A stretch of DNA of 64,000 nucleotides from Thermoanaerobaculia bacterium (GTDB lineage: Bacteria; Acidobacteriota; Thermoanaerobaculia; Gp7-AA8). The number at the start of each line of letters is the position of its first letter. The stretch's first letter is position 1. Location of the stretch: NCBI GenBank assembly GCA_035636095.1, contig DASPZU010000066.1, positions 16,545 to 80,544 on the forward strand, written 5' to 3'. The notes beneath the pieces were generated by a model. That model worked only from the letters and a program-made list of their open reading frames with translations, did no database searches and had not been told where the DNA came from. Shown in pieces: positions 522 through 32,221 of the stretch. A program made the translations under genes and the position numbers.

Positions 522-604
522 AAAATCGCCGGGCCCGAACGCAGCAGAGCGTTCTGCTACCTTTGGCCGATGCTCTGAGGCCGCGGCGGTAGCATAATCA
601 TCGT

Positions 605-1918
605 ATGGAACCGACCAAGGAATCGGTGTCGGACAAGGGCTGCGACACGACGGCACTGCCGGACGAGATCTGGACCGAGAGTCTGGAAAGGCTCAAGGCG
701 AGGCTCGAGGAGGAGACCAGCGAACGCCGCCGCGCGCATTGCATGGCCCACATTCAGAGCCACGCCGTGCAGCTCGCGCTCGATCTGATCGTCCGCGAAG
801 CCGATATCGAAGGCTTCTTCCGCGCATTCATGAAGTCGCTGATCGAGACCGGCGAGAGCCACGCCTGCGGCGTCTGGCTCCTCGACGAAGAGGGCACGCG
901 GTGCGATCTGTGGATGGCCTACATCGGCGAGAAACTGTTCGTGAAAGACGGTCCCGATTGGGACGCGCTGACCATGCCGCGCGACGCGATGGCGGCGTAT
1001 CTCTTCGAATTCAAGCAGGGTTGGAGCGAGACAATTGAATATTGCGGTGATGATGCCCGTCTGCCGGAGAGCGTTCGCACATTCAACAAGTCGATCGGCC
1101 TGACGGCGGTGGCGGTCACCCCGCTCGTCCTCCCGTCTCGCAACCTCGGATGGATTGCACTCTCCACCGCCGACGCGCAACCGGAGGAGGCGCCCTGGCG
1201 GCGCCTGCTGTTGGAAGCGACCGCGCGTCAGGCCACCCTGGCGCTGCATCAGAGCCGGCTGGCGGAACAGAGCCGCATCGAAGCGCGGCATCAGGCGGTG
1301 CTGGAAGAGCGCAATCGGATTGCGCGCGACATTCACGACACGCTGGCGCAGGGATTCGCGGCCATCCTGATGCAATTGCAATCGGTGCAGCGGGCGCCGG
1401 GTCTGCAGCCTAACATCGCCAGGAGTATCGACGACGCCGTCGACCTCGCCCGAACGCACATGATCGAGGCGCGAAGATCGGTGGGAGCGCTTCGGCCGCA
1501 GGAGATCGCCGCCGGCGATGTCGTGGCCGTCCTCGAGCGCACCACCGACCTGGCGCGGCGAACGACCGACGTACCGATCGAGCTGTTCGTGGAAGAGCTT
1601 CCGGCACTCGATGGAGTGGTCGAACGCGAGATCATCGGCATTGCACAGGAAGCATTGACGAACGCGGTCCGCCACGCGCGCGCACGCAAGATCACCATTC
1701 ACGCCGCAGCCACGCGGTCGGACGGATTCCGTCTTTCCGTTGCCGACGATGGACGCGGCATCGCCAAGGAGCGCTTTGGCGCGGGCTTCGGCCTGACCAG
1801 CATGCAGGAGCGCGCGGAGAGAATCGGCGGCTCTTTGACGATCGTCACCGCGCCGCGAGCAGGAACGGAAGTGGTGCTGGCATGGGAGCCGCCGGCCTTC
1901 AGCATCCCGAATCCATGA
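605..1918 (+). CDS. GAF-domain sensor histidine kinase (HisKA_3 / NarL-type)
   Basis: 437-aa ORF with H-box 'ERNRIARDIHDTLAQGF' and ATPase boxes 'EALTNAVRHA', 'DDGRGI', 'GFGLTSMQERA'. The stop overlaps the next start (ATGA at 1915-1918). Confidence 0.85.
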   Translation: MEPTKESVSDKGCDTTALPDEIWTESLERLKARLEEETSERRRAHCMAHIQSHAVQLALDLIVREADIEGFFRAFMKSLIETGESHACGVWLLDEEGTRCDLWMAYIGEKLFVKDGPDWDALTMPRDAMAAYLFEFKQGWSETIEYCGDDARLPESVRTFNKSIGLTAVAVTPLVLPSRNLGWIALSTADAQPEEAPWRRLLLEATARQATLALHQSRLAEQSRIEARHQAVLEERNRIARDIHDTLAQGFAAILMQLQSVQRAPGLQPNIARSIDDAVDLARTHMIEARRSVGALRPQEIAAGDVVAVLERTTDLARRTTDVPIELFVEELPALDGVVEREIIGIAQEALTNAVRHARARKITIHAAATRSDGFRLSVADDGRGIAKERFGAGFGLTSMQERAERIGGSLTIVTAPRAGTEVVLAWEPPAFSIPNP

Positions 1919-2541
1919 TCGAACCCGCGGGCGTTCTCGTTGTTGACGACCACGCGCTCGTGCGCACCGGCGTCGTCAACATCATCAGCCACGAGGCCGA
2001 CCTCCGCGTGGTGGCAGAAGCCGCCAACGGAGCGGAGGCGGTGGTTGCATTTGCGAAACATCATCCCGACGTCGTTTTGCTCGATCTGCGGATGCCGGTG
2101 ATGGAAGGCGTGGAGGCGGTCCGGCAGATTCGCGAGCTCGATCCGAACGCCAGGGTCATCGTGCTGACGACCTACGATACCGACGAAGACATCACGCGCG
2201 CGCTGAAGGCGGGCGCGAAGGCTTACGTGCTCAAAGACATCACCGCCGACGAGTTGATCGCCTGCATCCACGATGTCATTGCCGGCAAGACCTATCTCGC
2301 GCCGGCCGCCGCGGCCAAGCTGGCCGAAGGCCTGACGCGGGTGCAGGTGACGCCGCGCGAGCTGTCGACGCTGCGCCTCATGGCCGACGGCAAATCAAAC
2401 AAGGAAATCGCCAGCACCCTCGGCATCAGCGAGCGCACCGTCAAGAGTCACCTCGGTCATCTCTTTGAGAAGCTCGGCGTCACCAGCCGCACCGAGGCGA
2501 TCAAGGTCGCGACCCGGCGCGGGCTGGTGCGTATGGACTGA
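1915..2541 (+). CDS. response regulator, NarL/LuxR family
   Basis: REC domain 'VLVVDDHALVR..DVVLLDLRMP' plus LuxR HTH 'TPRELSTLRLMADGKSNKEIASTLGISERTVKSHL'. ATG 1915 (ATGA coupling) is preferred over ATG 1882. Confidence 0.85.
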   Translation: MIEPAGVLVVDDHALVRTGVVNIISHEADLRVVAEAANGAEAVVAFAKHHPDVVLLDLRMPVMEGVEAVRQIRELDPNARVIVLTTYDTDEDITRALKAGAKAYVLKDITADELIACIHDVIAGKTYLAPAAAAKLAEGLTRVQVTPRELSTLRLMADGKSNKEIASTLGISERTVKSHLGHLFEKLGVTSRTEAIKVATRRGLVRMD

Positions 2542-3101
2542 TGCGAAAAGTCATCCTGAAGATGGCGATGTCGGTTGACGGGTTCGTCAACGGTCCCAAC
2601 GGGGAGTTGGAGTGGGTGTTTGAAACGATGGACGCCGAATTGACGAAGTGGATCGTCGACTCCGTGTGGCAAGCCGGCGTCCACATCATGGGGGCGAAGA
2701 CCTATCAAGACATGGCAGCCTTTTGGCCGAACCCGAGCGTGCAGCCTCCCGAGCATCGACCGTTCGCGGCGCCGATGAACGAGATTCCTAAAGTCGTTTT
2801 CTCTAAAGCGCTGAAAGAGGCGACTTGGAAAGAGTCGCGCATCGCGCGCGGCGATCTTCGCGAGGAGATTGCGCGTCTCAGGCAGCAGCCGGGTAAGCCG
2901 ATTCTCGCGCATGGCGGGGCGCGCTTCGCGCAATCGCTCGCGAGGGAGAACCTGATCGACGAATACCGCATCGTCACGCACCCGGTCGCCCTGGGCGGCG
3001 GAGCGCCTCTGTTCAAGGATTTGCCTTCACATCTGAATCTGAAACTGCAAGGCGCGACGACATTTGCGTCGGGCGTGGTCGCGCACATCTACGAACGCTG
3101 A
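2541..3101 (+). CDS. dihydrofolate reductase-like (RibD C-terminal domain) family protein
   Basis: The N-terminus 'MRKVILKMAMSVDGFVNGPNGELEWVF' is typical of the RibD_C/DHFR-like family. The start overlaps the regulator stop (TGATG). Confidence 0.75.
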   Translation: MRKVILKMAMSVDGFVNGPNGELEWVFETMDAELTKWIVDSVWQAGVHIMGAKTYQDMAAFWPNPSVQPPEHRPFAAPMNEIPKVVFSKALKEATWKESRIARGDLREEIARLRQQPGKPILAHGGARFAQSLARENLIDEYRIVTHPVALGGGAPLFKDLPSHLNLKLQGATTFASGVVAHIYER

Positions 3102-3109
3102 CGGCATTT

Positions 3110-3811
3110 ATGATGAAAAGAAAAAGCAAGAAGGCACTTCCCAAAATCGTCTCGCAAAATGCGTGGCAGAAGGCTCATGCAAAGCTGTTGGCGAAGGAAA
3201 AGGCTGCCACTCGTGCGCGAGACGCGCTGGCTGCGGAACGGCGTCGGCAGCCGATGGTGGAAATCGAAAAGGAGTATCTGTTCGAGGGACCCCAGGGCAA
3301 AGCCACTCTGCTCGATCTGTTCGAAGGACGCCGCCAGCTCATCGTCTATCACTTCATGTTCGCGCCTGGAGTTGATGGTTGGCCGAAGGCCGGCTGACCC
3401 GGCTGCTCATTATGTGTTGACCAGTTTGGTCACCTTGCCCATCTCCACGCACGCGACACGTCATTCGCCCTGATTTCGCGCGCGCCGCTGGCGAACATCG
3501 AACGTTATCGAAAACGCATGGGGTGGACGATACCGTGGTACTCGTCGCACGACAGTGACTTCAATGTCGACTTCGGTCTAACAACCAAGCGTGGTGAGAC
3601 TTTCGGCCTCAGCGTTTTCCTGCGCGATGGCGACAAGATCTTTCGCACCTACTTCACGTCGCTTCGCGGCGTCGAGGCCCTCGGCAGTGTCTGGACATTC
3701 CTCGATCTCACCCCACTCGGACGGCAAGAGGATTGGGAGAATTCGCCGGAGGGCTGGCCGCAGACCCCGCGCTACCAGTGGTGGCGCCGCCACGACGAAT
3801 ATGGTTCGTGA
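3110..3811 (+). CDS. DUF899 thioredoxin-like protein with one in-frame TGA (3395-3397) at the first Cys of CxxC; candidate selenoprotein or nonsense pseudogene
   Basis: ORFs 3110-3397 and 3518-3811 share a frame. The 120 nt between them is open and reads PGCSLCVDQFGHLAHLHARDTSFALISRAPLANIERYRKR. The full 233-codon product matches the DUF899 layout (..YHFMF..G-[C]-P-x-C-S.. ..MGW..PWYSS.. ..LDLTPLGRQEDWE..). Confidence 0.6.
3416..3433 (+). other. hairpin 19 nt downstream of TGA 3395 (SECIS-like candidate)
   Basis: Stem TGACCA (3418-3423) pairs with TGGTCA (3427-3432). The loop is GTT. G3416-C3433 can pair if T3417 bulges. The loop lies about 30 nt after the U of UGA. Confidence 0.35.
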
Positions 3812-3861: not shown

Positions 3862-4254
3862 ATGTCTGACGAAATCATCGGCGCCGGGGGCGAGGTGATC
3901 GTCATCGATTTCCGCCGAAGCGGGAGCATGCAGACGGCAGTCATCGGCATGAATAACGGCTCTTCGCTCAGTGCGCTGGCCTCGCAGCTCATCGCGAAGG
4001 CGTTCAACGTGAAGCGAGCATCGGACATCGCGATGGTGGTCACGGATGACGGCAAGGCCGACGACTGCATCGCGCCAATGTCGAATCATGATGCGGCGAG
4101 GATGCTTTCGCGAATCACAAAACGGCCGGTCGTGTACGTCGATGTTCCCGAGAACATCGCCCGGCAATCGATGCGACACCTCGGAATGCCGGCGTCGCTC
4201 GTCGAAGCACTACTGCGAGACGACCGGCGATCCGATCACTCGCGCAGTACTTGA
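3862..4254 (+). CDS. hypothetical protein resembling the C-terminal third of NmrA/SDR NAD(P)-binding proteins (possible gene remnant)
   Basis: 'RPVVYVDVPENIARQSMRHLGMPASLVEALL' resembles the NmrA-family C-terminal region, but no Rossmann N-terminus is present. It overlaps the convergent gene end by 19 nt. Confidence 0.3.
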   Translation: MSDEIIGAGGEVIVIDFRRSGSMQTAVIGMNNGSSLSALASQLIAKAFNVKRASDIAMVVTDDGKADDCIAPMSNHDAARMLSRITKRPVVYVDVPENIARQSMRHLGMPASLVEALLRDDRRSDHSRST

Positions 4255-5912
4255 TGCACGAAGGCAACCGCGATCGAGCCTTCGCCGACCGCTGAGGCCA
4301 CGCGTTTGATGTTGCCGCCTCGCACGTCTCCGACCGCGAAGATGCCGGGCCGGTTGGTCTCGAGAAGATGCGGCTGCCGCGCCAGCGGCCACTGCGCGGT
4401 GCCCAGATCCTCCTGCGAGAGATCGGGACCGGTCTTGATGAATCCGTGATCGTCGAGCGCGACGCAGCCGTTGAGCCATTTGGTCGCCGGCACTGCGCCC
4501 GTCATCACGAAAACGTGGCGGATGTTTTCAACAGTGTCGGTTCCGCTGTTCTCATCACGACAACGCACGCGCTCCAGGTGCCTCCCACCCTCGAGCGCAA
4601 CGATCTGACAACTCGTCCTGACCTCGATGGCTGGATTGTCTTCGATGCGCCGGACCAGATAGCGCGACATGCTCTCGGCCAATCCACCCGATCGGACCAG
4701 CATGATCGCGCGACTGGCGTGCCCCGCCAGGAAGACCGCCGCCTGACCAGCCGAATTGCCGCCGCCGACGATGATCACCTTCTCGCCTTTGCATAGTTGT
4801 GCTTCCATGGGCGTGGCGATGTAGTAAACGCCTGCACTGTTGAAGCTGGCGAGATTCTCGATGGGCAAGCCTCGATATTCGGCGCCGGTGGCGATGATGA
4901 TGGTGCGGGCCGTGACGCGCGCTCCATTCTCGATCTCGATGGCGTACGGTCGTCTCTCGCACCGCAACTGCGTGGCGCCTTTGGCGATGATCATCTGGGC
5001 GCCGAATTTCTCGGCTTGACTGAATGCGCGTGTGGCCAGCTCCTCACCGGTAATGCCGGAGGGGAAGCCGAGGTAGTTTTCGATGCGCATGCTGGAGCCG
5101 GCCTGACCGCCGGGCGCATTCGCTTCGACCATCAAGACGTCGAGACCTTCCGACGCGGCATACACTGCGGCGCCTAGACCGGCCGGACCTGCGCCTACGA
5201 TCACCACGTCGCGAATGTGACTCTCGTCGACGTCGATGGCCTCATTGAATCCGATGCAATCGGCAATCTCCGCGTTGGTCGGATTCCGAAGGGTCGCTTC
5301 ACCGCGACAGATCACCACGGGAATGTCGGCGGTCGAGACCTTCAGGCGATCGAGGGATTCCTGAGAGACTTCGTCGACGTCGAGGTCGACATATGTATAT
5401 GGATGCGCATTCCGCGAGAGGAACTCACGGATCTGCAGGGTTCGAGGCGAGTACCTCGAGCCCAGCACCACCACGTCTCCGAAGCCGCGATCGATGAGCG
5501 CGACCCGCCGCAGGATGAACGCCCGCATGAAGATCTCGCTGAGCTCGGCGTCCGTTTGCAGCAGCGCCAGAAGGTCGTCGCGTTGTACTTCGATGACTTC
5601 GCCGGCGTCGATCACGCGGATGGTCGCCAGGCCGCGCCGGCCGGTCAGCAGATTCAGCTCGCCGCTGAATTGACCGCTGTGATGCGTCGTGACCACTTCC
5701 TCGCCAGTACAGGAGGAGCGTACGACCTCCAGCTCTCCGGCCGTGACCAGGAACAACGGGAAGTGCTGCTGACCTGCCTCCATGAGCACATCGCCGCGCT
5801 GCACCGTGCGTCTTCGTCCGTGAGCAGCGATGCGTGCGATCTGCTCCGGCGTCAAGATCGGAAAAACCTGTTCTTCACGCGGCGCGACAGTCAGGGGAAC
5901 GGAGGCAGACAT
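4236..5912 (-). CDS. cyclic-nucleotide-binding domain fused to thioredoxin-reductase-like FAD/NAD(P) oxidoreductase
   Basis: N-terminal cNMP-binding region 'FLVTAGELEVV..SGQFSGELNLLTGRR'. FAD site 'VVIVGAGPAGLGAAVYAASEG', NAD(P)H site 'VIIVGGGNSAGQAAVFLA', and 'GIFAVGDVR'. Confidence 0.85.
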   Translation of the reverse strand: MSASVPLTVAPREEQVFPILTPEQIARIAAHGRRRTVQRGDVLMEAGQQHFPLFLVTAGELEVVRSSCTGEEVVTTHHSGQFSGELNLLTGRRGLATIRVIDAGEVIEVQRDDLLALLQTDAELSEIFMRAFILRRVALIDRGFGDVVVLGSRYSPRTLQIREFLSRNAHPYTYVDLDVDEVSQESLDRLKVSTADIPVVICRGEATLRNPTNAEIADCIGFNEAIDVDESHIRDVVIVGAGPAGLGAAVYAASEGLDVLMVEANAPGGQAGSSMRIENYLGFPSGITGEELATRAFSQAEKFGAQMIIAKGATQLRCERRPYAIEIENGARVTARTIIIATGAEYRGLPIENLASFNSAGVYYIATPMEAQLCKGEKVIIVGGGNSAGQAAVFLAGHASRAIMLVRSGGLAESMSRYLVRRIEDNPAIEVRTSCQIVALEGGRHLERVRCRDENSGTDTVENIRHVFVMTGAVPATKWLNGCVALDDHGFIKTGPDLSQEDLGTAQWPLARQPHLLETNRPGIFAVGDVRGGNIKRVASAVGEGSIAVAFVHQVLRE

Positions 5913-5933: not shown

Positions 5934-6524
5934 TCAATCCGCTTTGACCAGCGGCACGTCGACGAGGTGCTGCGACAGGAACCACACTTGTTTCTCGTTG
6001 CCCCGAATGACATCGGAGACAAGGAGATCGTTCGTCCCATCGTCGCCTGATTTCGCCGCCTGCCGCGCCATCGTGCGCGCTTCCTCGAGCACGATTTCAT
6101 GGGCGTGCAGAAGTCGCGAGATTTGCACCGGCACTTCTTCGCGGCCCTTGGGCGGGCGCGGGATGATGGTCGTCTCCGCGATGTCGGGTGCCATCGCGAG
6201 GCCGACGCCGCCCAGCGACTGGATCCGCTCGGCGATTGCGTCCACCAGATCGTTCTGCTCTTCGTAGTGCTTATCGAAGAGAAGATGCAATTGATAGAAC
6301 GTGGGTCCGCCGACCTGCCAGTGGTGCTTTTTGTAGAGATCGCGCAGCGTGAACGTGTCGGCGAGAACCTGATTGAGATTCTCGACGCTCTGCTTCGCGA
6401 CCTTCTGTGAGAGCGCGATCGGCATCGGCACGGTCTGGCTGAACGCCTGAAACTCGTGTGCGCTCTGGCGGCTCAGCGGGCGCGCACGCGCCGCGATCGC
6501 CTCGGTATTTTTCTTTTTGGCCAT
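5934..6524 (-). CDS. dps: Dps family DNA-protection / ferritin-like protein
   Basis: 'LYKKHHWQVGGPTFYQLHLLFDKHYEEQNDLVDAIAERI' is a Dps ferroxidase-site region. The start is set at ATG 6524, which is preceded by AAGGAG, rather than ATG 6548. Confidence 0.85.
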   Translation of the reverse strand: MAKKKNTEAIAARARPLSRQSAHEFQAFSQTVPMPIALSQKVAKQSVENLNQVLADTFTLRDLYKKHHWQVGGPTFYQLHLLFDKHYEEQNDLVDAIAERIQSLGGVGLAMAPDIAETTIIPRPPKGREEVPVQISRLLHAHEIVLEEARTMARQAAKSGDDGTNDLLVSDVIRGNEKQVWFLSQHLVDVPLVKAD

Positions 6525-6554
6525 TTGGATCTCCTTCCAGCTTCGCATTCTGAT

Positions 6555-6920
6555 CTACAGCGTCCAGTTTCTCTCGCGCCCTGCTGCCTCGAGCAATGTC
6601 TGATGCTTCAGGCAGTAGGGCGTCCACGGGACCGCGTCGAGACGTTTCGGTTCGATCGGGCCCCCGTCGACGAGACATTTGCCGAAAGTGCCGTCATCGA
6701 TCCGACGGAGCGCATCCTGCACTTGCTGCAGAATCATCGAGTTGAGCTCGGCCGCGGTGAATTCAGAATCGATGGCCACGTCGGACACGCTGGCATCGCC
6801 GGCATCGTGCGGAGTGTCGATCAATTCTCCGCGGCCATCTTCGAGATCGCGAGAGGTACTCGCGTCGAGCTTCTTTTCAAGGTCGAGCAGCCGTCGCTTG
6901 TAACGTTGAATGTTGATCAT
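6555..6920 (-). CDS. TraR/DksA family zinc-finger protein
   Basis: 121 aa with an N-terminal coiled-coil region and a C-terminal 'GKCLVDGGPIEPKRLDAVPWTPYCLKHQ' finger-like segment. Confidence 0.6.
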   Translation of the reverse strand: MINIQRYKRRLLDLEKKLDASTSRDLEDGRGELIDTPHDAGDASVSDVAIDSEFTAAELNSMILQQVQDALRRIDDGTFGKCLVDGGPIEPKRLDAVPWTPYCLKHQTLLEAAGRERNWTL

Positions 6921-7735
6921 GATCCGAAATATCCGTTCATCTCCGCGCCGGGAATTGCGCGGCCGAGCGCGGAGAACGTTCCCTTCTCGGCGATCTCTCT
7001 CGCCGCTGCCAGAAATCCGGTCCAGGCCGTGCGTGCAAGCGCGCCGCCCACGCTGATCCGACGCACGCCCGCCGCAGCCAGCTCAGCCACGGTCGTGAAG
7101 TCGCTTCCCGCAAGAACATTCACTGGTTTGGGCGCGACCGCTTCCACGACCGCCTTGATGTCGCCGATCTTTCGCAATCCTGGCGCATAGAGGCAGTCGG
7201 CGCCGGCCGCGGCGTACGCTGCCAGACGGCGAATCGTCTCGTCAAAGTCAGGGCGACCGGCAATGAAGCCCTCCGAGCGCGCGGTGAGAAGAACGCCCGT
7301 GCCGCTCTTCTCGATCGCCGCCCGCGCGGCACGGACTCGCGCCACCGAAAGATCAAATTCGAACAGGGGATTCGCTGCATCGCCGGTCGAATCTTCGATC
7401 GATATGCCGGCGATCCCTGTCGCAACCGCGGCGGCTACGTTGTCCGCGACTCCGTGAGCGTCAACCGCGAAGCCTCCCTCGAAGTCGGCATTGATGGGGA
7501 CGTCTACGGCGGCGGTGATGGCGCGGAAATGCGCCAGCGCTTGTTCGAGCGGGACGTGGTTATCGCGACGACCCACGGACCACGCGAATCCCGAGCTGGT
7601 CGTCGCCAGCGCCGGAAATCCGAGCTGGACCAGAAGCTTCGCGCTGCCGGGATCCCATGGATTCGGCATCACGAAGCATCCCGACTGATGAAGCTGGCGA
7701 AATCGGTCCGTCGATCTGGTCATCTGCGCGAGCAT
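6917..7735 (-). CDS. isocitrate lyase / PEP mutase family protein
   Basis: 'FVMPNPWDPGSAKLLVQLGFPALATTSSG' and 'GISIEDS' motifs. The stop overlaps the downstream start (ATGA). Confidence 0.8.
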   Translation of the reverse strand: MLAQMTRSTDRFRQLHQSGCFVMPNPWDPGSAKLLVQLGFPALATTSSGFAWSVGRRDNHVPLEQALAHFRAITAAVDVPINADFEGGFAVDAHGVADNVAAAVATGIAGISIEDSTGDAANPLFEFDLSVARVRAARAAIEKSGTGVLLTARSEGFIAGRPDFDETIRRLAAYAAAGADCLYAPGLRKIGDIKAVVEAVAPKPVNVLAGSDFTTVAELAAAGVRRISVGGALARTAWTGFLAAAREIAEKGTFSALGRAIPGAEMNGYFGS

Positions 7736-8178: not shown

Positions 8179-9042
8179 GTGATCATGCCCACACGCTCTG
8201 TCAGCCAGCTCGTCCATGCCACCCCGCAGCTGGAGGGAGAAGGGATGCTCGTGACGCGTCCGTTTCCCACGCCGCGTCTCGACCACTTCGATCCCTTTTT
8301 GCTTCTCGACCGCATGGGACCGGTGACCCACGGCCCGGGCGAGGCGAAGGGCGCACCCGATCATCCGCATCGCGGCTTCGAGACCGTGACATACATCCTC
8401 GACGGGGCCGTCGAGCACAAGGACTCGCAGGGCAATCACGGCCGCATCGGCGCCGGTGACGTGCAGTGGATGACGGCCGGCTCGGGGGTGATTCACTCCG
8501 AGATGCCTTCCGAAGAAATCCTTCGCAGCGGCGGGCGACTGCACGGATTTCAACTGTGGGTCAACCTCCCCCGGACCGACAAGATGATGAAGCCGCGTTA
8601 TCAGGAACTGCGCTCTTCCGAGATCCCGACTGCCAAGAGCGCGGATGGCAAAGTCACCGTGACCGTGATCGCCGGTGAGTCCCTCGGCACGCAGGCAACC
8701 ATCGACACGCGGACGCCGATCATGTACCTGCACGTGCGCCTCGCCGCCGGCGGTCGCTTTACGCAAGTGATCCCTGAGGAATACAACGCGTTTGCTTTCA
8801 TCGTGAGCGGGCAGGCGGCTTTCGGCGATCGGATCGCGCGCGAGAACGACATGGTCATCTTCGGCCGCGACGGTGACGCAGTGACGATCACCACCGAGAG
8901 TGGGGCAGAAGTGCTCCTCATCGGCGGCGTTCCGCTGAATGAGCCGATCGCGCGCTATGGACCGTTTGTGATGAACACGGCAGGCGAGATCCGCCAGGCC
9001 ATGATCGACTATCAGAGCGGCCACTTCGGCGAGATCAGCTAA
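8179..9042 (+). CDS. pirin family protein
   Basis: 'HPHRGFETVTYILDGAVEHKDSQGN..MTAGSGVIHSE' cupin metal-site motifs; 287 aa. Confidence 0.85.
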   Translation: MIMPTRSVSQLVHATPQLEGEGMLVTRPFPTPRLDHFDPFLLLDRMGPVTHGPGEAKGAPDHPHRGFETVTYILDGAVEHKDSQGNHGRIGAGDVQWMTAGSGVIHSEMPSEEILRSGGRLHGFQLWVNLPRTDKMMKPRYQELRSSEIPTAKSADGKVTVTVIAGESLGTQATIDTRTPIMYLHVRLAAGGRFTQVIPEEYNAFAFIVSGQAAFGDRIARENDMVIFGRDGDAVTITTESGAEVLLIGGVPLNEPIARYGPFVMNTAGEIRQAMIDYQSGHFGEIS

Positions 9043-9998
9043 GTTGACGTTGTCACGTCGATGTACACGTCGCCGACGAACGGGGAGGCGGTGCGAAGGG
9101 CCTGATCGAGGTTGTCCATCGCGCGGGCGAGTTCCTCCACCGTCAACCGCGGCGATGGCCTGACCTTCGCCGCCACGATCACCTCTTCCGGGCCGACATA
9201 GACGGCCTGCAACGACACGATTTCCTCGACCGCGCTGTCGGACGCCACGATCTTGCGAAGCTCGGTCAGCAATTCCGGAGGAAGCGACTTCCCGACCAGA
9301 AAATCGCCGAGCGGCCGCGCCAGGCCGAAGGCAGTGATCGCCAGCAGGATGCCGATGAGCAGCGATGCGATCGCATCGGGCCGGCTGTTGCCGACGTGGC
9401 GACTGACCAGAAGGCCGGCGCCGGCGATGACCAGACCGATCAGCGCTGCGCTGTCTTCGACGACGATGGCCCGGTCGACGGGATCGCTGGATCGCAGAAG
9501 GTGAAACCAGACCGACCAGCCTCGCTCCCTGGCATTGCGTCGCGCCTGCACCACGCTCTGCAGCCATGATGTGCCGTCGGCGAGGAATGCGATTCCGAGG
9601 ACGATCCAGGCAGGTGTTGTGTTGGCGATCTTTTCGGCGTGCGTCAACTGCCCAATGGCAAGGGCGATGGAGAAGCAGCCTCCCACCAGGAACGACGCGA
9701 TGGCCGCCATGAATGCCCATAGAAATCGTTCGCGTCCGTGGCCGAGTGGATGGAGATCGTCGGGGGGAACCGCGGCGCGGCGCAGCGAGATGCCGAGAAG
9801 CACTTCATTGGACGAATCCGCCAGCGAATGGGCCGCTTCCGCCAGCAAGGCCGTCGATCCGGACAGGAGACCGCTGACCAGTTTCGCAATGGCGATGACC
9901 ACGTTCGCCACCAACGCGATGATGATGGTCCGCCAACCCTCGCTGCGCTCGATCTTCAGAAGCGCGGCCCGCGAACGCCGATACGGTGGGCTTAACAT
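9039..9998 (-). CDS. cation diffusion facilitator (CDF) family transporter
   Basis: 'AEAAHSLADSSNEVLL' TM2 metal-site motif, about six TM helices and a C-terminal cytoplasmic domain. Confidence 0.8.
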   Translation of the reverse strand: MLSPPYRRSRAALLKIERSEGWRTIIIALVANVVIAIAKLVSGLLSGSTALLAEAAHSLADSSNEVLLGISLRRAAVPPDDLHPLGHGRERFLWAFMAAIASFLVGGCFSIALAIGQLTHAEKIANTTPAWIVLGIAFLADGTSWLQSVVQARRNARERGWSVWFHLLRSSDPVDRAIVVEDSAALIGLVIAGAGLLVSRHVGNSRPDAIASLLIGILLAITAFGLARPLGDFLVGKSLPPELLTELRKIVASDSAVEEIVSLQAVYVGPEEVIVAAKVRPSPRLTVEELARAMDNLDQALRTASPFVGDVYIDVTTST

Positions 9999-17505: not shown

Positions 17506-18426
17506 ATGCCGGAGTGGCTGCTCCTCATCCATCAACTTCCACCGACCCCAAACTATCTGCGCGTAAAGGTCGCCCGTCGCATGCAGCGAATCGGCGCGGT
17601 GGCGATCAAGAACACTGTCTACGCACTTCCGGCGACCGAGAGCGCTCTCGAGGATTTCCAGTGGACCGTGCGCCAGATTCGCGCGGACGGCGGCGAAGCG
17701 AATCTGTTCGAGGCTCGAGTCATCGAAGGGCTGAGCGACGGCGAGATTCAGCAGCTCTTCAACGCCGCTCGCGATGAGGACTACGAGGCGATCGCATCCG
17801 AAGCGCGCTCGCTCGATCGAGAAGACGGGCAGCGACTGGCGCTCGACATCGTGCGGCTGAGAAAACGCATTGCCGACGTGCAATCGATCGATTTCTTCGG
17901 CGCGCCGAAGGGGCAGCTCGCCGTTGCAGTCTTAGAAGAGCTCGCACGATCCATCGAAGAGCCGACGCAAGCGTCGTCGGAAGCAGAACGCAGCGAGACC
18001 TATCGCGACCGGACTTGGGTGACCCGCGCGGGCGTGCACGTCGATCGTATGGCAAGCGCATGGCTGATCCGCCGTTTTGTCGATCCGGAGGCGCGCTTCA
18101 AATTCGTGACGGAGAAACAATATGCGCCCAAAGACGGTGAGGTGCGCTTCGACATGTTCAACGCTGAGTTCACGCATGAGGGTGATCGCTGCACGTTCGA
18201 AGTCCTGATCGATCGCATGAGCCTGGATGATCCCGCACTCCGCACGATCGCTGAAGTCGTCCACGACATCGATTTGAAAGAGGCGAAGTTCGATCGGCCC
18301 GAAACGTCGGGAATCGCAGTGATGGTCGCCAGCATCGCCATGGCGCATCGCGACGATGAGGAGCGCATCGCGCGAGCCGCCGCCGTTTTGGAGGATTTGT
18401 ATGTCTACTACCAAAAGAAGCGTTAG
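17506..18426 (+). CDS. ChrB-like chromate resistance regulator family protein
   Basis: 'LLLIHQLPPTPNYLRVKVARRMQRIGAVAIKNTVYALP' matches the ChrB N-terminal domain, and '..WVTRAGVHVDRMASAWLIRRFVDP..' matches the C-terminal Chrome_Resist-type domain. Confidence 0.75.
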   Translation: MPEWLLLIHQLPPTPNYLRVKVARRMQRIGAVAIKNTVYALPATESALEDFQWTVRQIRADGGEANLFEARVIEGLSDGEIQQLFNAARDEDYEAIASEARSLDREDGQRLALDIVRLRKRIADVQSIDFFGAPKGQLAVAVLEELARSIEEPTQASSEAERSETYRDRTWVTRAGVHVDRMASAWLIRRFVDPEARFKFVTEKQYAPKDGEVRFDMFNAEFTHEGDRCTFEVLIDRMSLDDPALRTIAEVVHDIDLKEAKFDRPETSGIAVMVASIAMAHRDDEERIARAAAVLEDLYVYYQKKR

Positions 18427-18455
18427 GCGGGATGATCCCGCAGAAGGAGAGCTTG

Positions 18456-19331
18456 ATGCGCATGTTCAAATCCATCTTGTCAATGTTGGCCCTGTTCGCT
18501 CTTGCCGCCGCCACGACGAAGGAAGATTGGAAAGATGTCGAAGCTGCACTCGGGCGGGTTGGCACAAAGCAACCTGACGGCGCCTATAAAGTGAGCTTTC
18601 CGCGCGGCGATCTCTCAGTGACCGCGGACGGCGTCGCCATCAAACCCGCGCTGGCCCTCGGGTCATGGGCGGCGTTCAGTGAGAGCGGCGCTCACTCCAT
18701 GGCGATGGGCGATCTCGTCCTGCTCGAATCCGAGGTCAATCCGGTAATCACTGAGCTGCAAAAAGGAGGGATGGAGGCCACCGCTATTCACAATCACCTG
18801 ATCGGGGAGTCGCCGCGGGTGATGTATGTGCACTTCAGCGGCCACGGCGACGCGACCGCCATTGCGCGAACGCTGCACAACGCGCTCGCCATGACGAAGA
18901 CGCCGATGGGACCGCCGGCTGCACCCGCCGCCGCGCAACTCGATCTTCCGACCTCCGATCTCGATCGAATCATGGGCCATCCCGGCAAGGCCAATGGCGG
19001 CGCATATCAGTTCGGCATTCCTCGCGTGGAGAAGATCACCGAGCATGGAATGACCATCCCGGCATCCATGGGCTTGGCGACCGCCATCAATTTTCAGCCA
19101 ACCGGCAATGGTCGAGCGGCGATATCGGGCGATTTCGTGTTGGTTGCATCCGAAGTCAACCCCGTGATACGCGCGCTGCAGGCTGGCGGGATCGCCGTGA
19201 CCGCGTTGCACAGCCACATGCTGGAAGAACAGCCGCGGCTCTTCTTCATGCACTTCTGGGCAAACGACGACGCGAGCAAACTGGCGACCGCACTGCGGTC
19301 GGCGCTCGATCGCATGCACGTCAAAAAATGA
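18456..19331 (+). CDS. DUF1259 (LppY/LpqO) family secreted protein
   Basis: ATG 18456 is preceded by AAGGAG (18444-18449). There is a signal peptide and a duplicated 'GG..(A/V)TA(I/L)HNH/HSH' module. Confidence 0.7.
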   Translation: MRMFKSILSMLALFALAAATTKEDWKDVEAALGRVGTKQPDGAYKVSFPRGDLSVTADGVAIKPALALGSWAAFSESGAHSMAMGDLVLLESEVNPVITELQKGGMEATAIHNHLIGESPRVMYVHFSGHGDATAIARTLHNALAMTKTPMGPPAAPAAAQLDLPTSDLDRIMGHPGKANGGAYQFGIPRVEKITEHGMTIPASMGLATAINFQPTGNGRAAISGDFVLVASEVNPVIRALQAGGIAVTALHSHMLEEQPRLFFMHFWANDDASKLATALRSALDRMHVKK

Positions 19332-22655: not shown

Positions 22656-23261
22656 ATGAAAACGAAAACACTGATCGTCCTTCTGATGGTGGCAACCATT
22701 GTGGCGGCCACCGAACGCGCTCGCTTCGTTCCGGCATCGAACAGCACGGTCAGGATCACCGGCACATCGACGCTGCATGAGTGGGCGATGGAAGGCACAA
22801 CGATCAACGGAGGCATCGAGATCGCTCCTGAGATCGCATCCGATCCGACTGATGCAAACTCATGGAAGAGCAACGAGCCACTCCAGGTCTCGGTCACGAT
22901 TCCGGTAAGTACGCTGAAGAGCGATCACGATCGCATGACCAACATCATGCGCGACGCCATGAAGGCCGCCAAATATCCCGACATCCGATACCAGCTCATC
23001 GAAGCTGATCCGCCGGAAGGTCGTTCCGATCACTTCACGATCAAGACGAAAGGCAAACTCACAATCAGTGGTGTAACGCGCGACATCGAGATGAACGTGG
23101 TCGCGACGCGCGATGCCGGCGACCGCTTCACGCTCGCCGGCGAGGCGCCGATCCGCATGACCGACTTCGGCATCACGCCGCCGATCACGATGCTCGGTGC
23201 TCTCAAGACCGGCGATCAGGTCAAGGTCGCATTCCGTTGGATCGTTGATCGGGTGCAATGA
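22656..23261 (+). CDS. YceI family protein
   Basis: 'STVRITGTSTLHEWAMEGTTINGGIEI' and '..FTIKTKGKLTISGVTRDIEMNV' are YceI-like lipid-binding barrel motifs. Confidence 0.75.
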   Translation: MKTKTLIVLLMVATIVAATERARFVPASNSTVRITGTSTLHEWAMEGTTINGGIEIAPEIASDPTDANSWKSNEPLQVSVTIPVSTLKSDHDRMTNIMRDAMKAAKYPDIRYQLIEADPPEGRSDHFTIKTKGKLTISGVTRDIEMNVVATRDAGDRFTLAGEAPIRMTDFGITPPITMLGALKTGDQVKVAFRWIVDRVQ

Positions 23262-23935
23262 CCATGAACTCTCTGATGTGCTTTGCGGCAACGGCCGCGA
23301 TGCTTTGCGCAACGAACGGTGTCGCGACGACGACACGCCTGACTGTCGCACCGCGAAGCACGCTTCTTCTCCAGGGCTCGTCGAATCTCGCCAAGTGGCG
23401 CTGTAGCGGCTCGACTCTCAATGGCTCCATGTACGTCGCTGCCCCGATCGAGAAGATCAATGCGGTCATCGATCGTATCGAGGAGGGGGACGTCGGAGCA
23501 TGGATGTCCGAACCGGCCGCCGCAACGTTTCCGCAACCGCGATTCGAGCTGACAATCCCGATTGAAGCATTGCGCTGCACAGGCGGCCGGCCGATGGAAC
23601 GCGATCTGGTCGCAGCGCTGAAGGCGGCACATTATCCCGACATCACTTTCCGCTTCGTGAGGCTCAAGGGCGGCGTGGAACACGACATCGACCGTCATTT
23701 GTATCGCGTGGTGATCCTCGGTGAGATCTCGCTCGCCGGAACCACGCGCGATGTGGAAATTGTCGCGACGGCGGAGCGGCTGGCATCAGACCGCTTTCGA
23801 ATCCAGGCTGCGCTGCCCCTTCGCATGACCGATTTCGGCGTCAATCCTCCGCGCGCGCTCCTTGGCCTCCTGCGTGCCGCCGATGACTTGACGGTGGAGA
23901 TGGACCTTTTCCTTCAGGTCGACAGCCATGCTTGA
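23258..23935 (+). CDS. YceI-like protein (divergent paralogue)
   Basis: 'STLLLQGSSNLAKWRCSGSTLNGSMYV' and '..ILGEISLAGTTRDVEIVA'. ATGA overlap with the upstream stop. Confidence 0.65.
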   Translation: MTMNSLMCFAATAAMLCATNGVATTTRLTVAPRSTLLLQGSSNLAKWRCSGSTLNGSMYVAAPIEKINAVIDRIEEGDVGAWMSEPAAATFPQPRFELTIPIEALRCTGGRPMERDLVAALKAAHYPDITFRFVRLKGGVEHDIDRHLYRVVILGEISLAGTTRDVEIVATAERLASDRFRIQAALPLRMTDFGVNPPRALLGLLRAADDLTVEMDLFLQVDSHA

Positions 23936-25346
23936 CAGCGTGCCGGAGGTATTCGGGATCCACCCGGCGATGCCACCTGATGCACAATCGGCGGTGGCAA
24001 ATGCCAGACTGGATATGGACCTGAAGCGACTTCGATGGATTGCGGTCGCGGCACCGCTGATGATCGTGATCGCGCTGGAGGTGATCCGCGCAGCGACGGC
24101 GGGTGAAGTTCCGTTGCAGACGCGTTTGGTGCTCGATGCAGTCGTGGTGGTTGCCTTCGCAATCTTCGGCGTTGTCATGGTGCGCGCGATTGGAGACATC
24201 AATGAGCAGCTCAAGCGCCAGAATCGCGAGCTGCTCGCCCTTCACAGCGCTGGTCTCGACGTGGCGGCCGAGCTCTCGCTCGATGCAGTATTGAAAAAAG
24301 TGGTCGATCAGGCGCGCAACCTCGTCGGCGCCAAGTACGGAGCACTCTCTGTGGTCGATGCAGAGCAGGGTCGAATCAAATCATTCTTGACCTCCGGGAT
24401 CACGCCCGAGGAGCGCGAAGCGATCGGACCGCCTCCTGTCGGCCACGGCGTTCTCGGGGTGGTGTTGCACGAGGGTCAGCGACTTCGACTCGAAGATATC
24501 GCCAAGCATCCGCGCTCGGTCGGTTTCCCTGCGAATCATCCGATGATGCGCACGCTGCTCGCTGTTCCGATCACCTGCAAGAGTCCTTTCGTCGGCAATC
24601 TTTATCTGGCCGAGAAAGAAAATGACGAGCGATTCACCGACGATGACGAGAAGACGCTCGAGCGCTTCGCAGTGCAGGCAGCCATCGCGATCGACAACGC
24701 GCATTTGCATCAGCAAGTCGGCGATCTGGCGGTTGCTCAAGAGCGCCTGAGAATCGCACACGAGATGCATGACGGCATCGCGCAGGTCTTGGGGTATGTA
24801 AACACGAAAGTCCAGGCGGCCAACGAATACCTGCGCCGCGGAAAGAACGAGGAGGCAAGTGGCCAGCTTCGAGAGCTGGCCGTTGCGGCTCGAGAAGCGT
24901 ATGGCGACGTTCGTGAGGCGATCGTCGATTTGCGAACGTTGCCCAGTCCGCAGCAATCGTTCGCTGATGCAATGCGGGAGTACATCAATCGATGGAAAGA
25001 ACAGACAGGCATCAGCACTCACGTCACGATCGATGGTGACCTTTCATTGAACGCCGGCGCGGAGCTGCAGCTCGTCCGCATCATTCAGGAATCGCTGGCC
25101 AACGTCCGCAAGCATGCCCGGGCTACGACCGCGACCGTCGACGTGCGCCGGCGCGATGGTGGACTCGAAGTCACAATTGCCGACGATGGAATCGGATTCA
25201 ATCCCGGTGCGCGCGGGCGAGGCGATTTCCCTCAATTCGGTCTGCCGACAATGCAGGAACGTGCGGCGACCATCGGGGGCAAATTGGAAATTGAAAGCCG
25301 CCCTGGACGCGGCACGACCGTTCGTCTGCACATGCCGCTAACCTGA
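23928..25346 (+). CDS. GAF-domain sensor histidine kinase (HisKA_3)
   Basis: Two TM helices, a GAF region, H-box 'RLRIAHEMHDGIAQVLG', and ATPase boxes 'ESLANVRKHA', 'DDGIGF', 'FGLPTMQERA'. Confidence 0.85.
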   Translation: MLDSVPEVFGIHPAMPPDAQSAVANARLDMDLKRLRWIAVAAPLMIVIALEVIRAATAGEVPLQTRLVLDAVVVVAFAIFGVVMVRAIGDINEQLKRQNRELLALHSAGLDVAAELSLDAVLKKVVDQARNLVGAKYGALSVVDAEQGRIKSFLTSGITPEEREAIGPPPVGHGVLGVVLHEGQRLRLEDIAKHPRSVGFPANHPMMRTLLAVPITCKSPFVGNLYLAEKENDERFTDDDEKTLERFAVQAAIAIDNAHLHQQVGDLAVAQERLRIAHEMHDGIAQVLGYVNTKVQAANEYLRRGKNEEASGQLRELAVAAREAYGDVREAIVDLRTLPSPQQSFADAMREYINRWKEQTGISTHVTIDGDLSLNAGAELQLVRIIQESLANVRKHARATTATVDVRRRDGGLEVTIADDGIGFNPGARGRGDFPQFGLPTMQERAATIGGKLEIESRPGRGTTVRLHMPLT

Positions 25347-25362
25347 GTCATACTTCAATCCA

Positions 25363-26028
25363 ATGCGCATCGTGATCGCCGACGACCACTCGCTGTTTCG
25401 CGACGGCCTGAAGAGCCTCTTGCAGGCTGAAGGGCACGAGGTCATCGGCGAGGCGCGCGACGGCGTGGAGGCAGTCGAGCTCACAAAACGGTTGCATCCG
25501 GAGGTTGTTCTGATGGACCTGAGCATGCCGCGCATGGACGGCCTGGCCGCAACCCGGACGCTGGTCAGCGAAATGCCGGGGGTGAAGGTCATCATCCTGA
25601 CCGCCTCCGACGACGACGCGAAGTTGTTCGACGCCATCAAAGCGGGCGCGCAGGGATATCTGTTAAAAAATCTCGAGGCCGACGATTTCTTCTCGCTGCT
25701 CGATCGTGCCAGTCATGGCGAGCCGGCACTGACTCCGAACCTCGCGCGAAAATTGCTGCAGGAATTCGCGAAGCCTGAAGCTGCGCCGAGTACCGAGAAT
25801 CCCGATGCGCTCACCGAGCGCGAACGCGAAGTTCTGGAGCTGATGGTCGAAGGGGTCACGTCGAATCGTAAGCTCGCGAGACGCCTCAACGTGAGCGAGA
25901 ACACGGTGAAGTTTCACGTGCGCAACATCCTCGACAAGTTGCGACTCCATACCCGCGCCGAGGCAGTCGGTTACGCGCTGCGCAAGAAAATCGTCGATCC
26001 GCGCGGAAGCGGCCATGAACGTTCATGA
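25363..26028 (+). CDS. response regulator, NarL/LuxR family
   Basis: 'MRIVIADDHSLFRDG..VVLMDLSMP' REC domain plus 'TEREREVLELMVEGVTSNRKLARRLNVSENTVKFHV' HTH. Confidence 0.85.
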   Translation: MRIVIADDHSLFRDGLKSLLQAEGHEVIGEARDGVEAVELTKRLHPEVVLMDLSMPRMDGLAATRTLVSEMPGVKVIILTASDDDAKLFDAIKAGAQGYLLKNLEADDFFSLLDRASHGEPALTPNLARKLLQEFAKPEAAPSTENPDALTEREREVLELMVEGVTSNRKLARRLNVSENTVKFHVRNILDKLRLHTRAEAVGYALRKKIVDPRGSGHERS

Positions 26029-32128: not shown

Positions 32129-32221
32129 TGCTGATGGGAGGTTCACGATATTACTCGCGCTTCGCACGGCCGTCAATCAGTAAATGCATTAACGCATTAG
32201 TGCGTGAAGCAACTGAATTTG

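What the first reader, a model, noticed from the sequence alone, without database searches (positions are those of the whole stretch)
3110..3811. DUF899 thioredoxin-like gene with a single in-frame TGA exactly at the first Cys of its CxxC motif
Seen in the sequence:
- ORFs 3110-3397 and 3518-3811 share a frame.
- The gap between them is open and reads PGCSLCVDQFGHLAHLHARD..RYRKR, so a 233-codon frame is broken only by TGA 3395-3397.

From family knowledge (memory of DUF899 sequences): the aligned segment is ..W.EG-C-P-S-C-S.., so the stop replaces the first Cys, giving U/stop-P-G-C. UxxC or CxxU in a thioredoxin fold is the classic position for selenocysteine.

Structure around the codon:
- A 6-bp hairpin with a bulged U and a GUU loop lies at 3416-3433, about 30 nt after the UGA. 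That is within the range used for bacterial SECIS elements.
- The UGA itself sits in the pentaloop of GCCGG-CUGAC-CCGGC (3389-3403).

Context: the gene is the last member of a tightly coupled kinase, regulator, DHFR-like, DUF899 operon.
Basis: partly seen in the sequence, partly recalled or inferred. Interest (0 to 1): 0.75.

Follow-up and report, generated by a model that had tools for sequence, protein, structure and literature searches.

The report
Selenocysteine-type DUF899 redox protein gene
A soil-bacterium gene for a thioredoxin-like protein of unknown function has a conserved, translated UGA where its relatives have the catalytic cysteine, which most likely makes DUF899 a selenoprotein family missing from a 2026 review's table of such families.

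Summary
Window 3110-3811 (+) is one 233-codon DUF899 (PF05988) frame broken only by TGA 3395-3397, which aligns with the first Cys of the family's CxxC motif.

The TGA is neither an error nor a pseudogene. At least 22 contigs from about 20 assemblies carry it, as at least 9 distinct alleles (69-98% nt identity). All keep the frame to the normal stop. dN/dS downstream of the TGA is 0.05-0.17, the same as upstream. The 40-codon gap, which has no start codon in most alleles, has pN/pS 0.05-0.29. So the UGA is translated.

A hairpin fitting the published bacterial SECIS model follows it. Its arms show the strongest synonymous-site conservation in the gene: Gly GGT in 14/14 TGA genes versus 3/39 Cys homologues. 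However, close Cys relatives also form model-compliant hairpins, so the generic model does not discriminate.

selA, selB, selC and selD could not be tested, because the window has none and the genome is unavailable. DUF899 is absent from a 2026 table of more than 110 prokaryotic selenoprotein families.

Verdict: a real, probably unlisted UxxC selenoprotein family, and a new member of a known kind.

The parts
3110..3811 (+). DUF899 (PF05988) gene read through one UGA: 233 codons plus the stop TGA 3809-3811
   Evidence: full-length Pfam match across the stop; purifying selection on both sides of the TGA in at least 9 alleles
3395..3397 (+). In-frame TGA, the proposed Sec codon (U96), aligned with the first Cys of CxxC
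   Evidence: Cys in 23/24 and 60/60 homologues; TGA present in at least 22 contigs
3404..3406 (+). TGC, the resolving Cys (C99) of the U-P-G-C motif
   Evidence: invariant column C99
3416..3433 (+). Candidate SECIS apical hairpin: G3416-C3433, bulged U3417, stem UGACCA/UGGUCA, triloop GUU; 26 nt lie between the UGA and the loop
   Evidence: fits the published bSECIS model; GAC, CAG and GGT are invariant synonymous sites among 9 alleles; GGT 14/14 versus 3/39; GGT is 13.6% of Gly codons in the window
3389..3403 (+). GCCGG-CUGAC-CCGGC hairpin with UGA in the loop; a coding by-product, not Sec-specific
   Evidence: -7.4 kcal/mol; the same stem in Cys homologue L019
3398..3517 (+). 40-codon 'gap' between the TGA and the first in-frame ATG; it holds the conserved GCS..DQ.GH..H.RD.S block and can only be translated by reading through the UGA
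   Evidence: pN/pS 0.05-0.29; no ATG/GTG/TTG in frame in 6 of 9 alleles
605..1918 (+). GAF/HisKA_3/HATPase_c histidine kinase, co-directional and upstream
1882..2541 (+). LuxR/GerE-type response regulator
2541..3101 (+). RibD_C (dihydrofolate-reductase-like) protein, ending 8 nt before the DUF899 start
   Evidence: the same pairing occurs in allele L104 but not in L007, L095, L121 or L131
3862..4254 (+). 130-aa ORF with no Pfam match, 50 nt downstream on the same strand; possibly part of the same transcript
4236..5912 (-). Convergent gene for a cNMP-binding plus thioredoxin-reductase-like flavoprotein; a possible reductant (inference only)

Best explanation
Window 3110-3811 encodes a full-length DUF899 thioredoxin/peroxiredoxin-fold protein whose active-site motif is U-P-G-C instead of C-P-G-C. 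UGA 3395-3397 is recoded, most likely as selenocysteine. The inferred steps are these. A SelB-type factor carrying Sec-tRNA(Sec) binds the stem-loop built on the Asp-Gln (GAC CAG) and Gly-His (GGU CA) codons 21-38 nt downstream. This delivers Sec to the A site, and translation continues to the normal stop at 3809-3811. The selenolate of U96 then acts as the attacking nucleophile of a thiol/selenol-disulfide or peroxide-type redox reaction. C99 resolves it through a selenenylsulfide, and a cellular reductant recycles the pair. Shown here: the UGA is real, conserved and translated, it replaces the catalytic Cys, and the downstream RNA is under synonymous constraint. Inferred: the inserted residue is Sec, SelB binds the hairpin, and the chemistry and the reductant.
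For: The read-through frame is a complete DUF899, and the TGA column is the first Cys of CxxC.

The identical 95-aa N-fragment occurs on 6 contigs. Different alleles with the same TGA occur in other gene neighbourhoods. A metagenome pattern scan found 17 more TGA-bearing DUF899 contigs. In total there are 14 unique nucleotide sequences and at least 9 alleles, 69-98% identical. None has an indel before the C-terminus; one (L102) has a shifted C-terminal tail.

Nei-Gojobori dN/dS downstream of the TGA is 0.05-0.17 and matches the upstream value. dS is saturated between the two clades. The start-less 40-codon gap has pN/pS 0.05-0.29.

TGA is otherwise the commonest stop in the window (29 of 55 ORFs), so the code is not reassigned.

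A hairpin meeting the published bSECIS constraints (quoted) is found in 7 of 9 distinct TGA regions. The other 2 fail only the energy cut-off. Among Cys homologues from species genomes, 7 of 60 pass.

Of 64 conserved four-fold sites, only 5 are invariant across 9 alleles. The only one that is not G or C is the GGT forming the 3' arm. GAC and CAG, which form the 5' arm, are invariant too. GGT is found in 14/14 TGA genes against 3/39 Cys homologues.

The fold is peroxiredoxin/TlpA-like. Sec-decoding Acidobacteria are known (PMC1794560).
Against: No selA, selB, selD or tRNA-Sec is present in the 64-kb window or in any fetched locus. The rest of the genome could not be searched.

The hairpin has no covariation, because all paired columns are invariant.

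All three nearest Cys relatives with DNA in hand also pass the generic bSECIS model. The region is therefore intrinsically hairpin-prone, and the model does not discriminate.

The two TGA clades use different hairpin registers, with spacing of 26 versus 18 nt. An alternative long fold that pairs UGACC with GGUCA is equally compatible.

The fold energy around the site is not unusual against shuffles (z -1.17). There is no Rfam hit. There are no experimental data.
Confidence: 0.85

Rival explanations
1. The UGA is recoded through the same hairpin-dependent route, but with cysteine or another residue rather than Sec. [quoted passage not shown]
For: Such systems exist (PMC7609411). Non-canonical allo-tRNAs are reported in Acidobacteria (same paper). 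Nothing here identifies the inserted residue. The Cys and TGA forms interconvert readily in this family.
Against: The reviewed selC*/SelB*/CysRS* systems are described in Syntrophobacterales and Desulfobacterales, not Acidobacteria. Keeping UGA plus a recoding apparatus merely to insert Cys, when TGC would do, gives no obvious benefit. A Sec/Cys pair at a CxxC nucleophile is the classic selenoprotein signature (PMC13188914).
Confidence: 0.06
2. The gene is a pseudogene inactivated by a TGY-to-TGA nonsense mutation at the Cys codon.
For: A single base change converts TGC or TGT to TGA. Gene callers split the gene into fragments of 95 and 97 aa. One near-identical relative has lost the active site (Arg for Sec, and Arg for Trp and Gly).
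Against: The TGA is retained in at least 9 alleles that have diverged to saturating dS. None has an additional internal stop, and only L102 shows a frameshift, confined to its C-terminal tail. Downstream dN/dS is as low as upstream.
Confidence: 0.03
3. The gene is split. The 95-aa N-terminal and 97-aa C-terminal ORFs are made separately and assemble, and the UGA is a true stop.
For: An in-frame ATG at 3518 is conserved in all alleles. It is also a conserved Met in Cys forms (M137).
Against: The 40 codons between the TGA and that ATG carry the second Cys and the invariant D104, H108, R115, T117 and S118 block. They are under purifying selection (pN/pS 0.05-0.29) although most alleles have no start codon there. 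A split product would lack both CxxC residues.
Confidence: 0.03
4. The TGA is a sequencing or assembly error for TGC or TGT.
For: None beyond the prior that isolated in-frame stops are sometimes errors.
Against: TGA occurs at this codon in at least 22 contigs from about 20 independent JGI, NCBI and ENA assemblies.
Confidence: 0.01

Closest known systems
Cys-containing DUF899 / PF05988 proteins ('predicted dithiol-disulfide oxidoreductase, DUF899 family')
   Same: Full-length homology of up to 85% identity (P0002; the closer hit P0001, 86%, has Arg rather than Cys at the column). Same length. Same G-C-x-G-C-S...D...H motif block. Same predicted peroxiredoxin/thioredoxin-like fold.
   Different: The first Cys codon is TGA, and the downstream codons (GTT/GTC GAC CAG NNN GGT CA) are fixed in a hairpin-forming form. 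Function is uncharacterised for both forms. No solved structure was found by sequence.
Known UxxC thioredoxin-fold selenoproteins of bacteria: Sec-thioredoxin, Prx-like thiol:disulfide oxidoreductase, 'Redoxin family protein' PF08534, DsbA/DsbG-like and TlpA-like (Table 1 of PMC13188914)
   Same: Sec replaces the N-terminal nucleophilic Cys of a CxxC motif in a thioredoxin fold. Cys-form homologues predominate. The SECIS lies inside the ORF just after the UGA.
   Different: The Pfam family is different. PF05988 is not in that table. There is an extra long N-terminal helix and a C-terminal Trp/Arg-rich tail. The alleles come from soil metagenomes and are probably Acidobacteriota, rather than the anaerobes that hold most known families. 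I could not check whether the listed PF08534 entry (HEU0032618.1) is in fact a DUF899 protein. Some DUF899 proteins give weak PF08534 hits.
E. coli fdhF SECIS (my own knowledge of the literature: upper stem with a bulged U and G-U in the apical loop, 11 nt after the UGA)
   Same: A short upper stem closed by G-C with a bulged U on the 5' side, and a small apical loop starting with G-U. Clade-2 alleles place the loop G-U 18 nt after the UGA, which by my own recollection is close to the E. coli register.
   Different: In the window the hairpin lies about 7 nt further downstream (26 nt between the UGA and the loop) and has a triloop. No binding or functional data exist. The resemblance is recalled from memory, not tested.

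Membership tests
DUF899 (Pfam PF05988) | Full-length match to the family HMM above the gathering score | tested here: met
   292.1 bits against a cut-off of 27; residues 10-231 match profile positions 3-224 of 224, across the TGA
DUF899 (Pfam PF05988) | Conserved G-C-x-G-C-S motif following the YHFMF strand | tested here: met
   G95, [TGA]96, P97, G98, C99 and S100; all other columns of the block are invariant and the first Cys is replaced by TGA
DUF899 (Pfam PF05988) | Thioredoxin/peroxiredoxin-like fold | tested here: met
   AF2 model of Cys homologue P0004 (mean pLDDT 65.7; active-site loop below 50). The best Foldseek PDB hits are AhpC/TSA, BCP, AhpE and TlpA-like proteins, E 1.7e-5 to 5e-4, target TM about 0.6. 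Confidence is moderate.
Bacterial selenoprotein gene | In-frame UGA aligned with a conserved (redox) Cys in homologues (a Sec/Cys pair) | tested here: met
Bacterial selenoprotein gene | UGA conserved in orthologues from other organisms, with coding constraint continuing downstream | tested here: met
   At least 9 alleles, 69-98% nt identity; dN/dS 0.05-0.17 downstream; gap region pN/pS 0.05-0.29
Bacterial selenoprotein gene | [quoted passage not shown] | tested here: inconclusive
   The window passes marginally (-7.6; loop GUU; spacing 26; 6-bp stem). 7 of 9 TGA regions pass, against 7 of 60 distant Cys homologues. All 3 nearest Cys relatives pass as well. There is no covariation. Synonymous-site constraint on the arms supports an RNA function.
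Bacterial selenoprotein gene | Sec-decoding machinery (selA, selB, selC/tRNA-Sec, selD) in the same genome | not testable with these tools
   None found in the window or in any fetched locus. About 20 of the roughly 57 window ORFs, mostly under 300 aa, were not scanned against Pfam.
Bacterial selenoprotein gene | Selenium demonstrably incorporated at the UGA position | not testable with these tools
   Needs 75Se labelling or mass spectrometry
Peroxiredoxin (AhpC/TSA, PF00578) | PxxxT/SxxC peroxidatic-Cys motif and a family HMM match | tested here: not met
   No AhpC-TSA hit at E <= 1e-3. The motif is A-G-U-P-G-C, a CxxC type. The similarity is at fold level only.
Catalogued prokaryotic selenoprotein families (Table 1, PMC13188914, May 2026) | Family or domain listed in the catalogue | tested here: not met
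   No 'DUF899', 'PF05988' or 'dithiol' in the text or table. No paper in the library pairs DUF899 with selenocysteine. There is no NCBIfam model.

The most novel reading that the evidence does not exclude
The UGA in this DUF899 clade may not be decoded as selenocysteine. A dedicated tRNA and SelB-like factor could recode it, through the same hairpin, as cysteine or another residue in soil Acidobacteriota. Separately, the family may have switched between Cys and UGA at least twice by reusing hairpins that the Asp-Gln...Gly-His codons already form in Cys-type genes. That would make it a natural example of one-step selenoprotein birth from a pre-adapted SECIS.
Probability: 0.08. Interest if true: 0.8.

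Novelty: new member of a known kind. Interest (0 to 1): 0.5.

Why it matters
It would add DUF899/PF05988 to the prokaryotic selenoprotein families. The family is large, uncharacterised and thioredoxin-like. A Sec/Cys pair marks the first Cys of its CxxC as the catalytic nucleophile, which is a direct functional clue for thousands of 'unknown function' proteins.

The carriers are soil bacteria, probably Acidobacteriota. By contrast, the 2026 review says aerobic bacteria rarely retain selenoproteins.

Annotation pipelines currently split these genes into two fragments, so they are miscounted.

The family also shows how cheaply a bacterial selenoprotein can arise. Cys-type relatives already carry SECIS-like hairpins. 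Two TGA clades use different registers built on the same GACCAG arm. One strain has reverted TGA to CGA.

Tried and rejected
- Rfam at gathering score over the whole window, and at E <= 10 over 3300-3560: no SECIS or other credible family.
- ARAGORN on the window and 18 TGA loci: no tRNA-Sec.
- Pfam on about 35 window ORFs, chosen by size to catch SelA, SelB and SelD: none found.
- A scan of the window for other in-frame TGAs flanked by coding-like ORFs: only antisense or adjacent-gene artefacts, so no second selenoprotein candidate.
- NCBIfam: no model.
- PDB sequence search: no hit.
- RNAalifold on 8 alleles: a long fold pairing UGACC with GGUCA, with zero compensatory pairs, so it could neither be preferred nor excluded.
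- Fold energy against shuffles: not significant (z -1.17).
- GTDB species genomes: 80 loci fetched; all 60 whose motif could be located have Cys, none has TGA, and none is the source genome.
- Walking beyond the window end with a window protein failed, because the ORF start did not match a called gene.
- The idea that the hairpin is unique to TGA alleles was rejected after the nearest Cys relatives were fetched.
- The small hairpin with UGA in its loop was rejected as a signal, because Cys homologues have the same stem.

Full report
**1. The observation**

Translating window 3110-3811 (+) gives a 233-codon frame with one internal stop, TGA 3395-3397, and the normal stop at 3809-3811. With X at the stop, Pfam DUF899 (PF05988) matches residues 10-231 against profile positions 3-224 of 224 (E 3.5e-87, 292 bits against a cut-off of 27). 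The two ORFs are therefore halves of one complete domain.

Homologue searches found thousands of full-length relatives, up to 86% identical. In an alignment of the 24 best, the stop column is the first Cys of an invariant G-C-x-G-C-S block in 23 of 24. It is also Cys in all 60 homologues located in GTDB species genomes.

The upstream kinase, regulator and RibD_C genes are tightly packed as described. However, a same-strand ORF (3862-4254) follows DUF899 after 50 nt with no terminator-like site between them. 'Last gene of the operon' is therefore unconfirmed.

**2. The TGA is neither an error nor a pseudogene**

- The exact 95-aa N-terminal fragment is on six contigs from JGI and NCBI assemblies. 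Three of these are about 100% identical to the window.
- Its 90% cluster holds two other fragment sequences. Their contigs (L007/L008 and L009) have different neighbouring genes. They carry the same TGA and an intact frame to the same stop.
- One metagenome scan used a degenerate pattern for W-P-x-A-G-TGA-x-G-C-S-x3-[D/N]. It returned 46 stretches, of which 17 are DUF899 genes with the TGA at this codon.
- Together with the window and the loci fetched earlier (L004, L007/L008, L009), this gives 14 unique nucleotide sequences and at least 9 distinct alleles, 69-98% identical. None has an indel before the C-terminus.
- Nei-Gojobori estimates show the same constraint on both sides of the TGA. For window versus L009, dS is 0.57 upstream and 0.62 downstream, and dN/dS is 0.036 and 0.065. 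Across all pairs the downstream dN/dS is 0.05-0.17. dS is saturated between the two main groups.
- The 40 codons between the TGA and the first in-frame ATG (3398-3517) have no ATG, GTG or TTG in 6 of 9 alleles. Yet their pN/pS is 0.05-0.29. This block contains the second Cys and the invariant D104, H108, R115, T117 and S118.
- That stretch can only be under protein-level selection if ribosomes read through the UGA.
- TGA is otherwise the most frequent stop in the window (29 of 55 ORFs). This is site-specific recoding, not a reassigned code.

**3. RNA signal after the UGA**

In the window and its clade (clade 1), the codons GUU GAC CAG (U/G)UU GGU CAC form a hairpin. The stem is UGACCA/UGGUCA and the triloop is G(U/G)U. 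It is closed by G3416-C3433 with U3417 bulged. 26 nt lie between the UGA and the loop.

In the second clade (L120, L121 and related alleles), CUG GUC GUC GAC CAG forms CUGGUC-GUC-GACCAG, with 18 nt of spacing.

I implemented the constraints of the published bacterial SECIS model as quoted in PMC13188914: a loop of 3-9 nt, G in the first two loop positions followed by G or U, an upper stem of at least 4 bp, 16-37 nt spacing, and MFE <= -7.5 kcal/mol. The results were:

| Set | Pass the model |
|---|---|
| Distinct TGA regions | 7 of 9 (the other two miss only the energy cut-off, at -6.4) |
| Cys homologues from species genomes | 7 of 60 |
| Nearest Cys relatives with DNA (P0002, P0004, P0007) | 3 of 3 |

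Stronger evidence comes from synonymous sites. Among 64 four-fold sites with a conserved residue, only 5 are invariant across nine alleles. The only one that is not G or C is the GGT of Gly+11, which forms the 3' arm. GAC (+8) and CAG (+9), which form the 5' arm, are invariant two-fold sites. Codons +4 to +13 have the highest share of frozen synonymous sites in the gene.

GGT occurs in 14 of 14 TGA genes but in 3 of 39 Cys homologues with Gly at that position. GGT, GTT and TTT make up 13.6%, 13% and 25.5% of their codon families in this window.

Four caveats apply.

- No pair covaries, because all paired columns are invariant. RNAalifold prefers a longer fold in which UGACC at the Sec codon pairs with GGUCA. 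That fold explains the GGU conservation in clade 2 equally well.
- The fold energy is not unusual against shuffles.
- The nearest Cys relatives whose DNA I could fetch all also pass the generic model. They do so with CCAGAU-CGGCC-AUCUGG or UGGUC-GUC-GACCA.
- The region is therefore intrinsically hairpin-prone. The generic model is necessary but not discriminating, and Cys-type genes look pre-adapted for a one-step TGY-to-TGA switch.

The GCCGG-CUGAC-CCGGC hairpin around the UGA is a product of the Ala-Gly-x-Pro-Gly codons. It is identical in Cys homologue L019. A ribosome positioned on the UGA would melt it anyway.

**4. Distribution and evolution**

A neighbour-joining tree places the window with L118, L007, L131, L009, L104, L095 and L092 in one clade. 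L120 and L121 fall elsewhere. They are closer to the Cys forms P0016, P0021 and P0007 (81%) than to clade 1 (78%). This suggests at least two Cys/Sec switches, although the tree is crude.

The best full-length hit, P0001, is seen in two assemblies. It differs from TGA allele L095 by 5 nt in 672. Three of those changes lie within 19 nt: GGC>CGC, TGG>CGG and TGA>CGA. This is a recent Sec-to-Arg change that also removes the conserved Gly and Trp.

Gene neighbourhoods vary. RibD_C lies upstream in the window and in L104. A GerE-type gene, cation-efflux plus pirin genes, DUF6152, or DoxX_2 lie upstream elsewhere.

**5. What the protein is**

No solved structure was found by sequence. An AlphaFold2 model of Cys homologue P0004 has mean pLDDT 65.7, and its active-site loop scores below 50. 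It shows a long N-terminal helix followed by a thioredoxin-type beta-alpha core, with the CxxC between strand 74-79 and helix 99-105.

The best Foldseek PDB matches are AhpC/TSA, BCP and AhpE peroxiredoxins and TlpA-like thiol-disulfide oxidoreductases (E 1.7e-5 to 5e-4, target TM about 0.6). No peroxiredoxin HMM or PxxxTxxC motif is present. It therefore works like a CxxC oxidoreductase of that fold, but it is not a peroxiredoxin family member.

The convergent neighbour at 4236-5912 is a cNMP-binding, thioredoxin-reductase-like flavoprotein. Dps, pirin and a cation-efflux gene follow. A stress or redox context is plausible but inferred.

**6. Sec machinery and host**

No tRNA was found in the window or in 18 TGA loci. 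About 35 of the roughly 57 window ORFs were scanned against Pfam, chosen by size to catch SelA, SelB and SelD; none is one of these. No second in-frame-TGA candidate was found.

Cluster mates of the window's Dps protein are named Acidobacteria or Thermoanaerobaculia. The best named DUF899 hits are Acidobacteriota or Terriglobia. Sec-decoding Acidobacteria with 3 selenoprotein families were reported in PMC1794560.

**7. Comparison with what is known**

A May 2026 review tabulates more than 110 known or predicted prokaryotic selenoprotein families. DUF899, PF05988 and 'dithiol' do not occur in it. No paper in the library pairs DUF899 with selenocysteine, and COG4312 finds nothing. NCBIfam has no model. 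Public annotations split the gene into fragments of 95 and 97 aa.

The table does list a 'Redoxin family protein' (PF08534, UxxC, HEU0032618.1). Some DUF899 proteins give weak PF08534 hits, so I cannot exclude that this entry overlaps.

**8. Verdict**

The gene is real and translated through its UGA. It is most likely a UxxC selenoprotein form of DUF899 (confidence 0.85). It belongs to a known kind, the thioredoxin-fold Sec/Cys pair with an intragenic SECIS, but to a family absent from the 2026 review's table.

Remaining alternatives are recoding to Cys or another residue (0.06), a pseudogene (0.03), a split gene (0.03) and a sequencing error (0.01).

Interest is moderate at 0.5. It gives a clear functional clue for a large DUF and a neat evolutionary case. 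New bacterial selenoprotein families are, however, reported regularly.

Noticed in passing
L004 (JGI 3300027875, Ga0209283_10031161), equivalent to window 548-3809: Mosaic contig. It is identical to the window from 548 to 3411. All 53 differences lie after 3412, where it is identical to allele L009. The breakpoint falls between the UGA and the hairpin. It is either recombination between two TGA alleles or a chimeric assembly.
   Followed up: partly
L005 374-1072 and L006 327-1025 (protein P0001): Near-identical to TGA allele L095 (5 nt differences in 672). Three clustered changes, GGC>CGC, TGG>CGG and TGA>CGA, turn G-W...U into R-R...R. It is seen in two independent assemblies. It may be a recent loss of Sec, perhaps in a strain without the Sec machinery, or a single multi-nucleotide event.
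   Followed up: partly
L136, L138, L139 (Cys-type relatives P0002, P0004, P0007), about 20-50 nt after the Cys codon: Cys-type genes already form SECIS-model-compliant hairpins from the Gln-Ile-Gly-His-Leu codons (CCAGAU-CGGCC-AUCUGG) or the Val-Val-Asp-Gln codons (UGGUC-GUC-GACCA). This suggests pre-adaptation for Cys-to-Sec switching.
   Followed up: partly
window 4236-5912 (-): Fusion of a cyclic-nucleotide-binding domain with a thioredoxin-reductase-like Pyr_redox_2 flavoprotein. It is convergent with the DUF899 cluster and overlaps ORF 3862-4254 by 19 nt. Dps/ferritin (5934-6548) and a PEP-mutase-family gene (6917-7735) follow.
   Followed up: no
window 3862-4254 (+): A 130-aa ORF with no Pfam hit. 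Its 90% cluster has a single member. It is called as a gene in all matching contigs.
   Followed up: no
window 22656-26028 (+): Two YceI-like proteins, followed by a second GAF/HisKA_3 kinase and a LuxR-type regulator. The pair has the same domain types as the one upstream of DUF899.
   Followed up: no
window 28106-32176 (-): A 1356-aa signalling protein with Reg_prop/Y_Y_Y propeller, PAS, GGDEF and EAL domains.
   Followed up: no
L102 (Ga0209057_1045458) and L096 (WNGL01021591.1): Two clade-2 TGA alleles with blemishes. L102 has a shifted C-terminal tail (...EEDDERQRSVRRFR). L096 has a short insertion (YHFTFAFMFAPG) in the strand before the active site. These may be assembly errors or decaying copies.
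   Followed up: no
window 17506-19331 (+): A ChrB-like chromate-resistance regulator followed by a DUF1259 protein. Together with the CDF efflux gene (9039-9998), this hints at a metal or oxyanion-stress neighbourhood.
   Followed up: no
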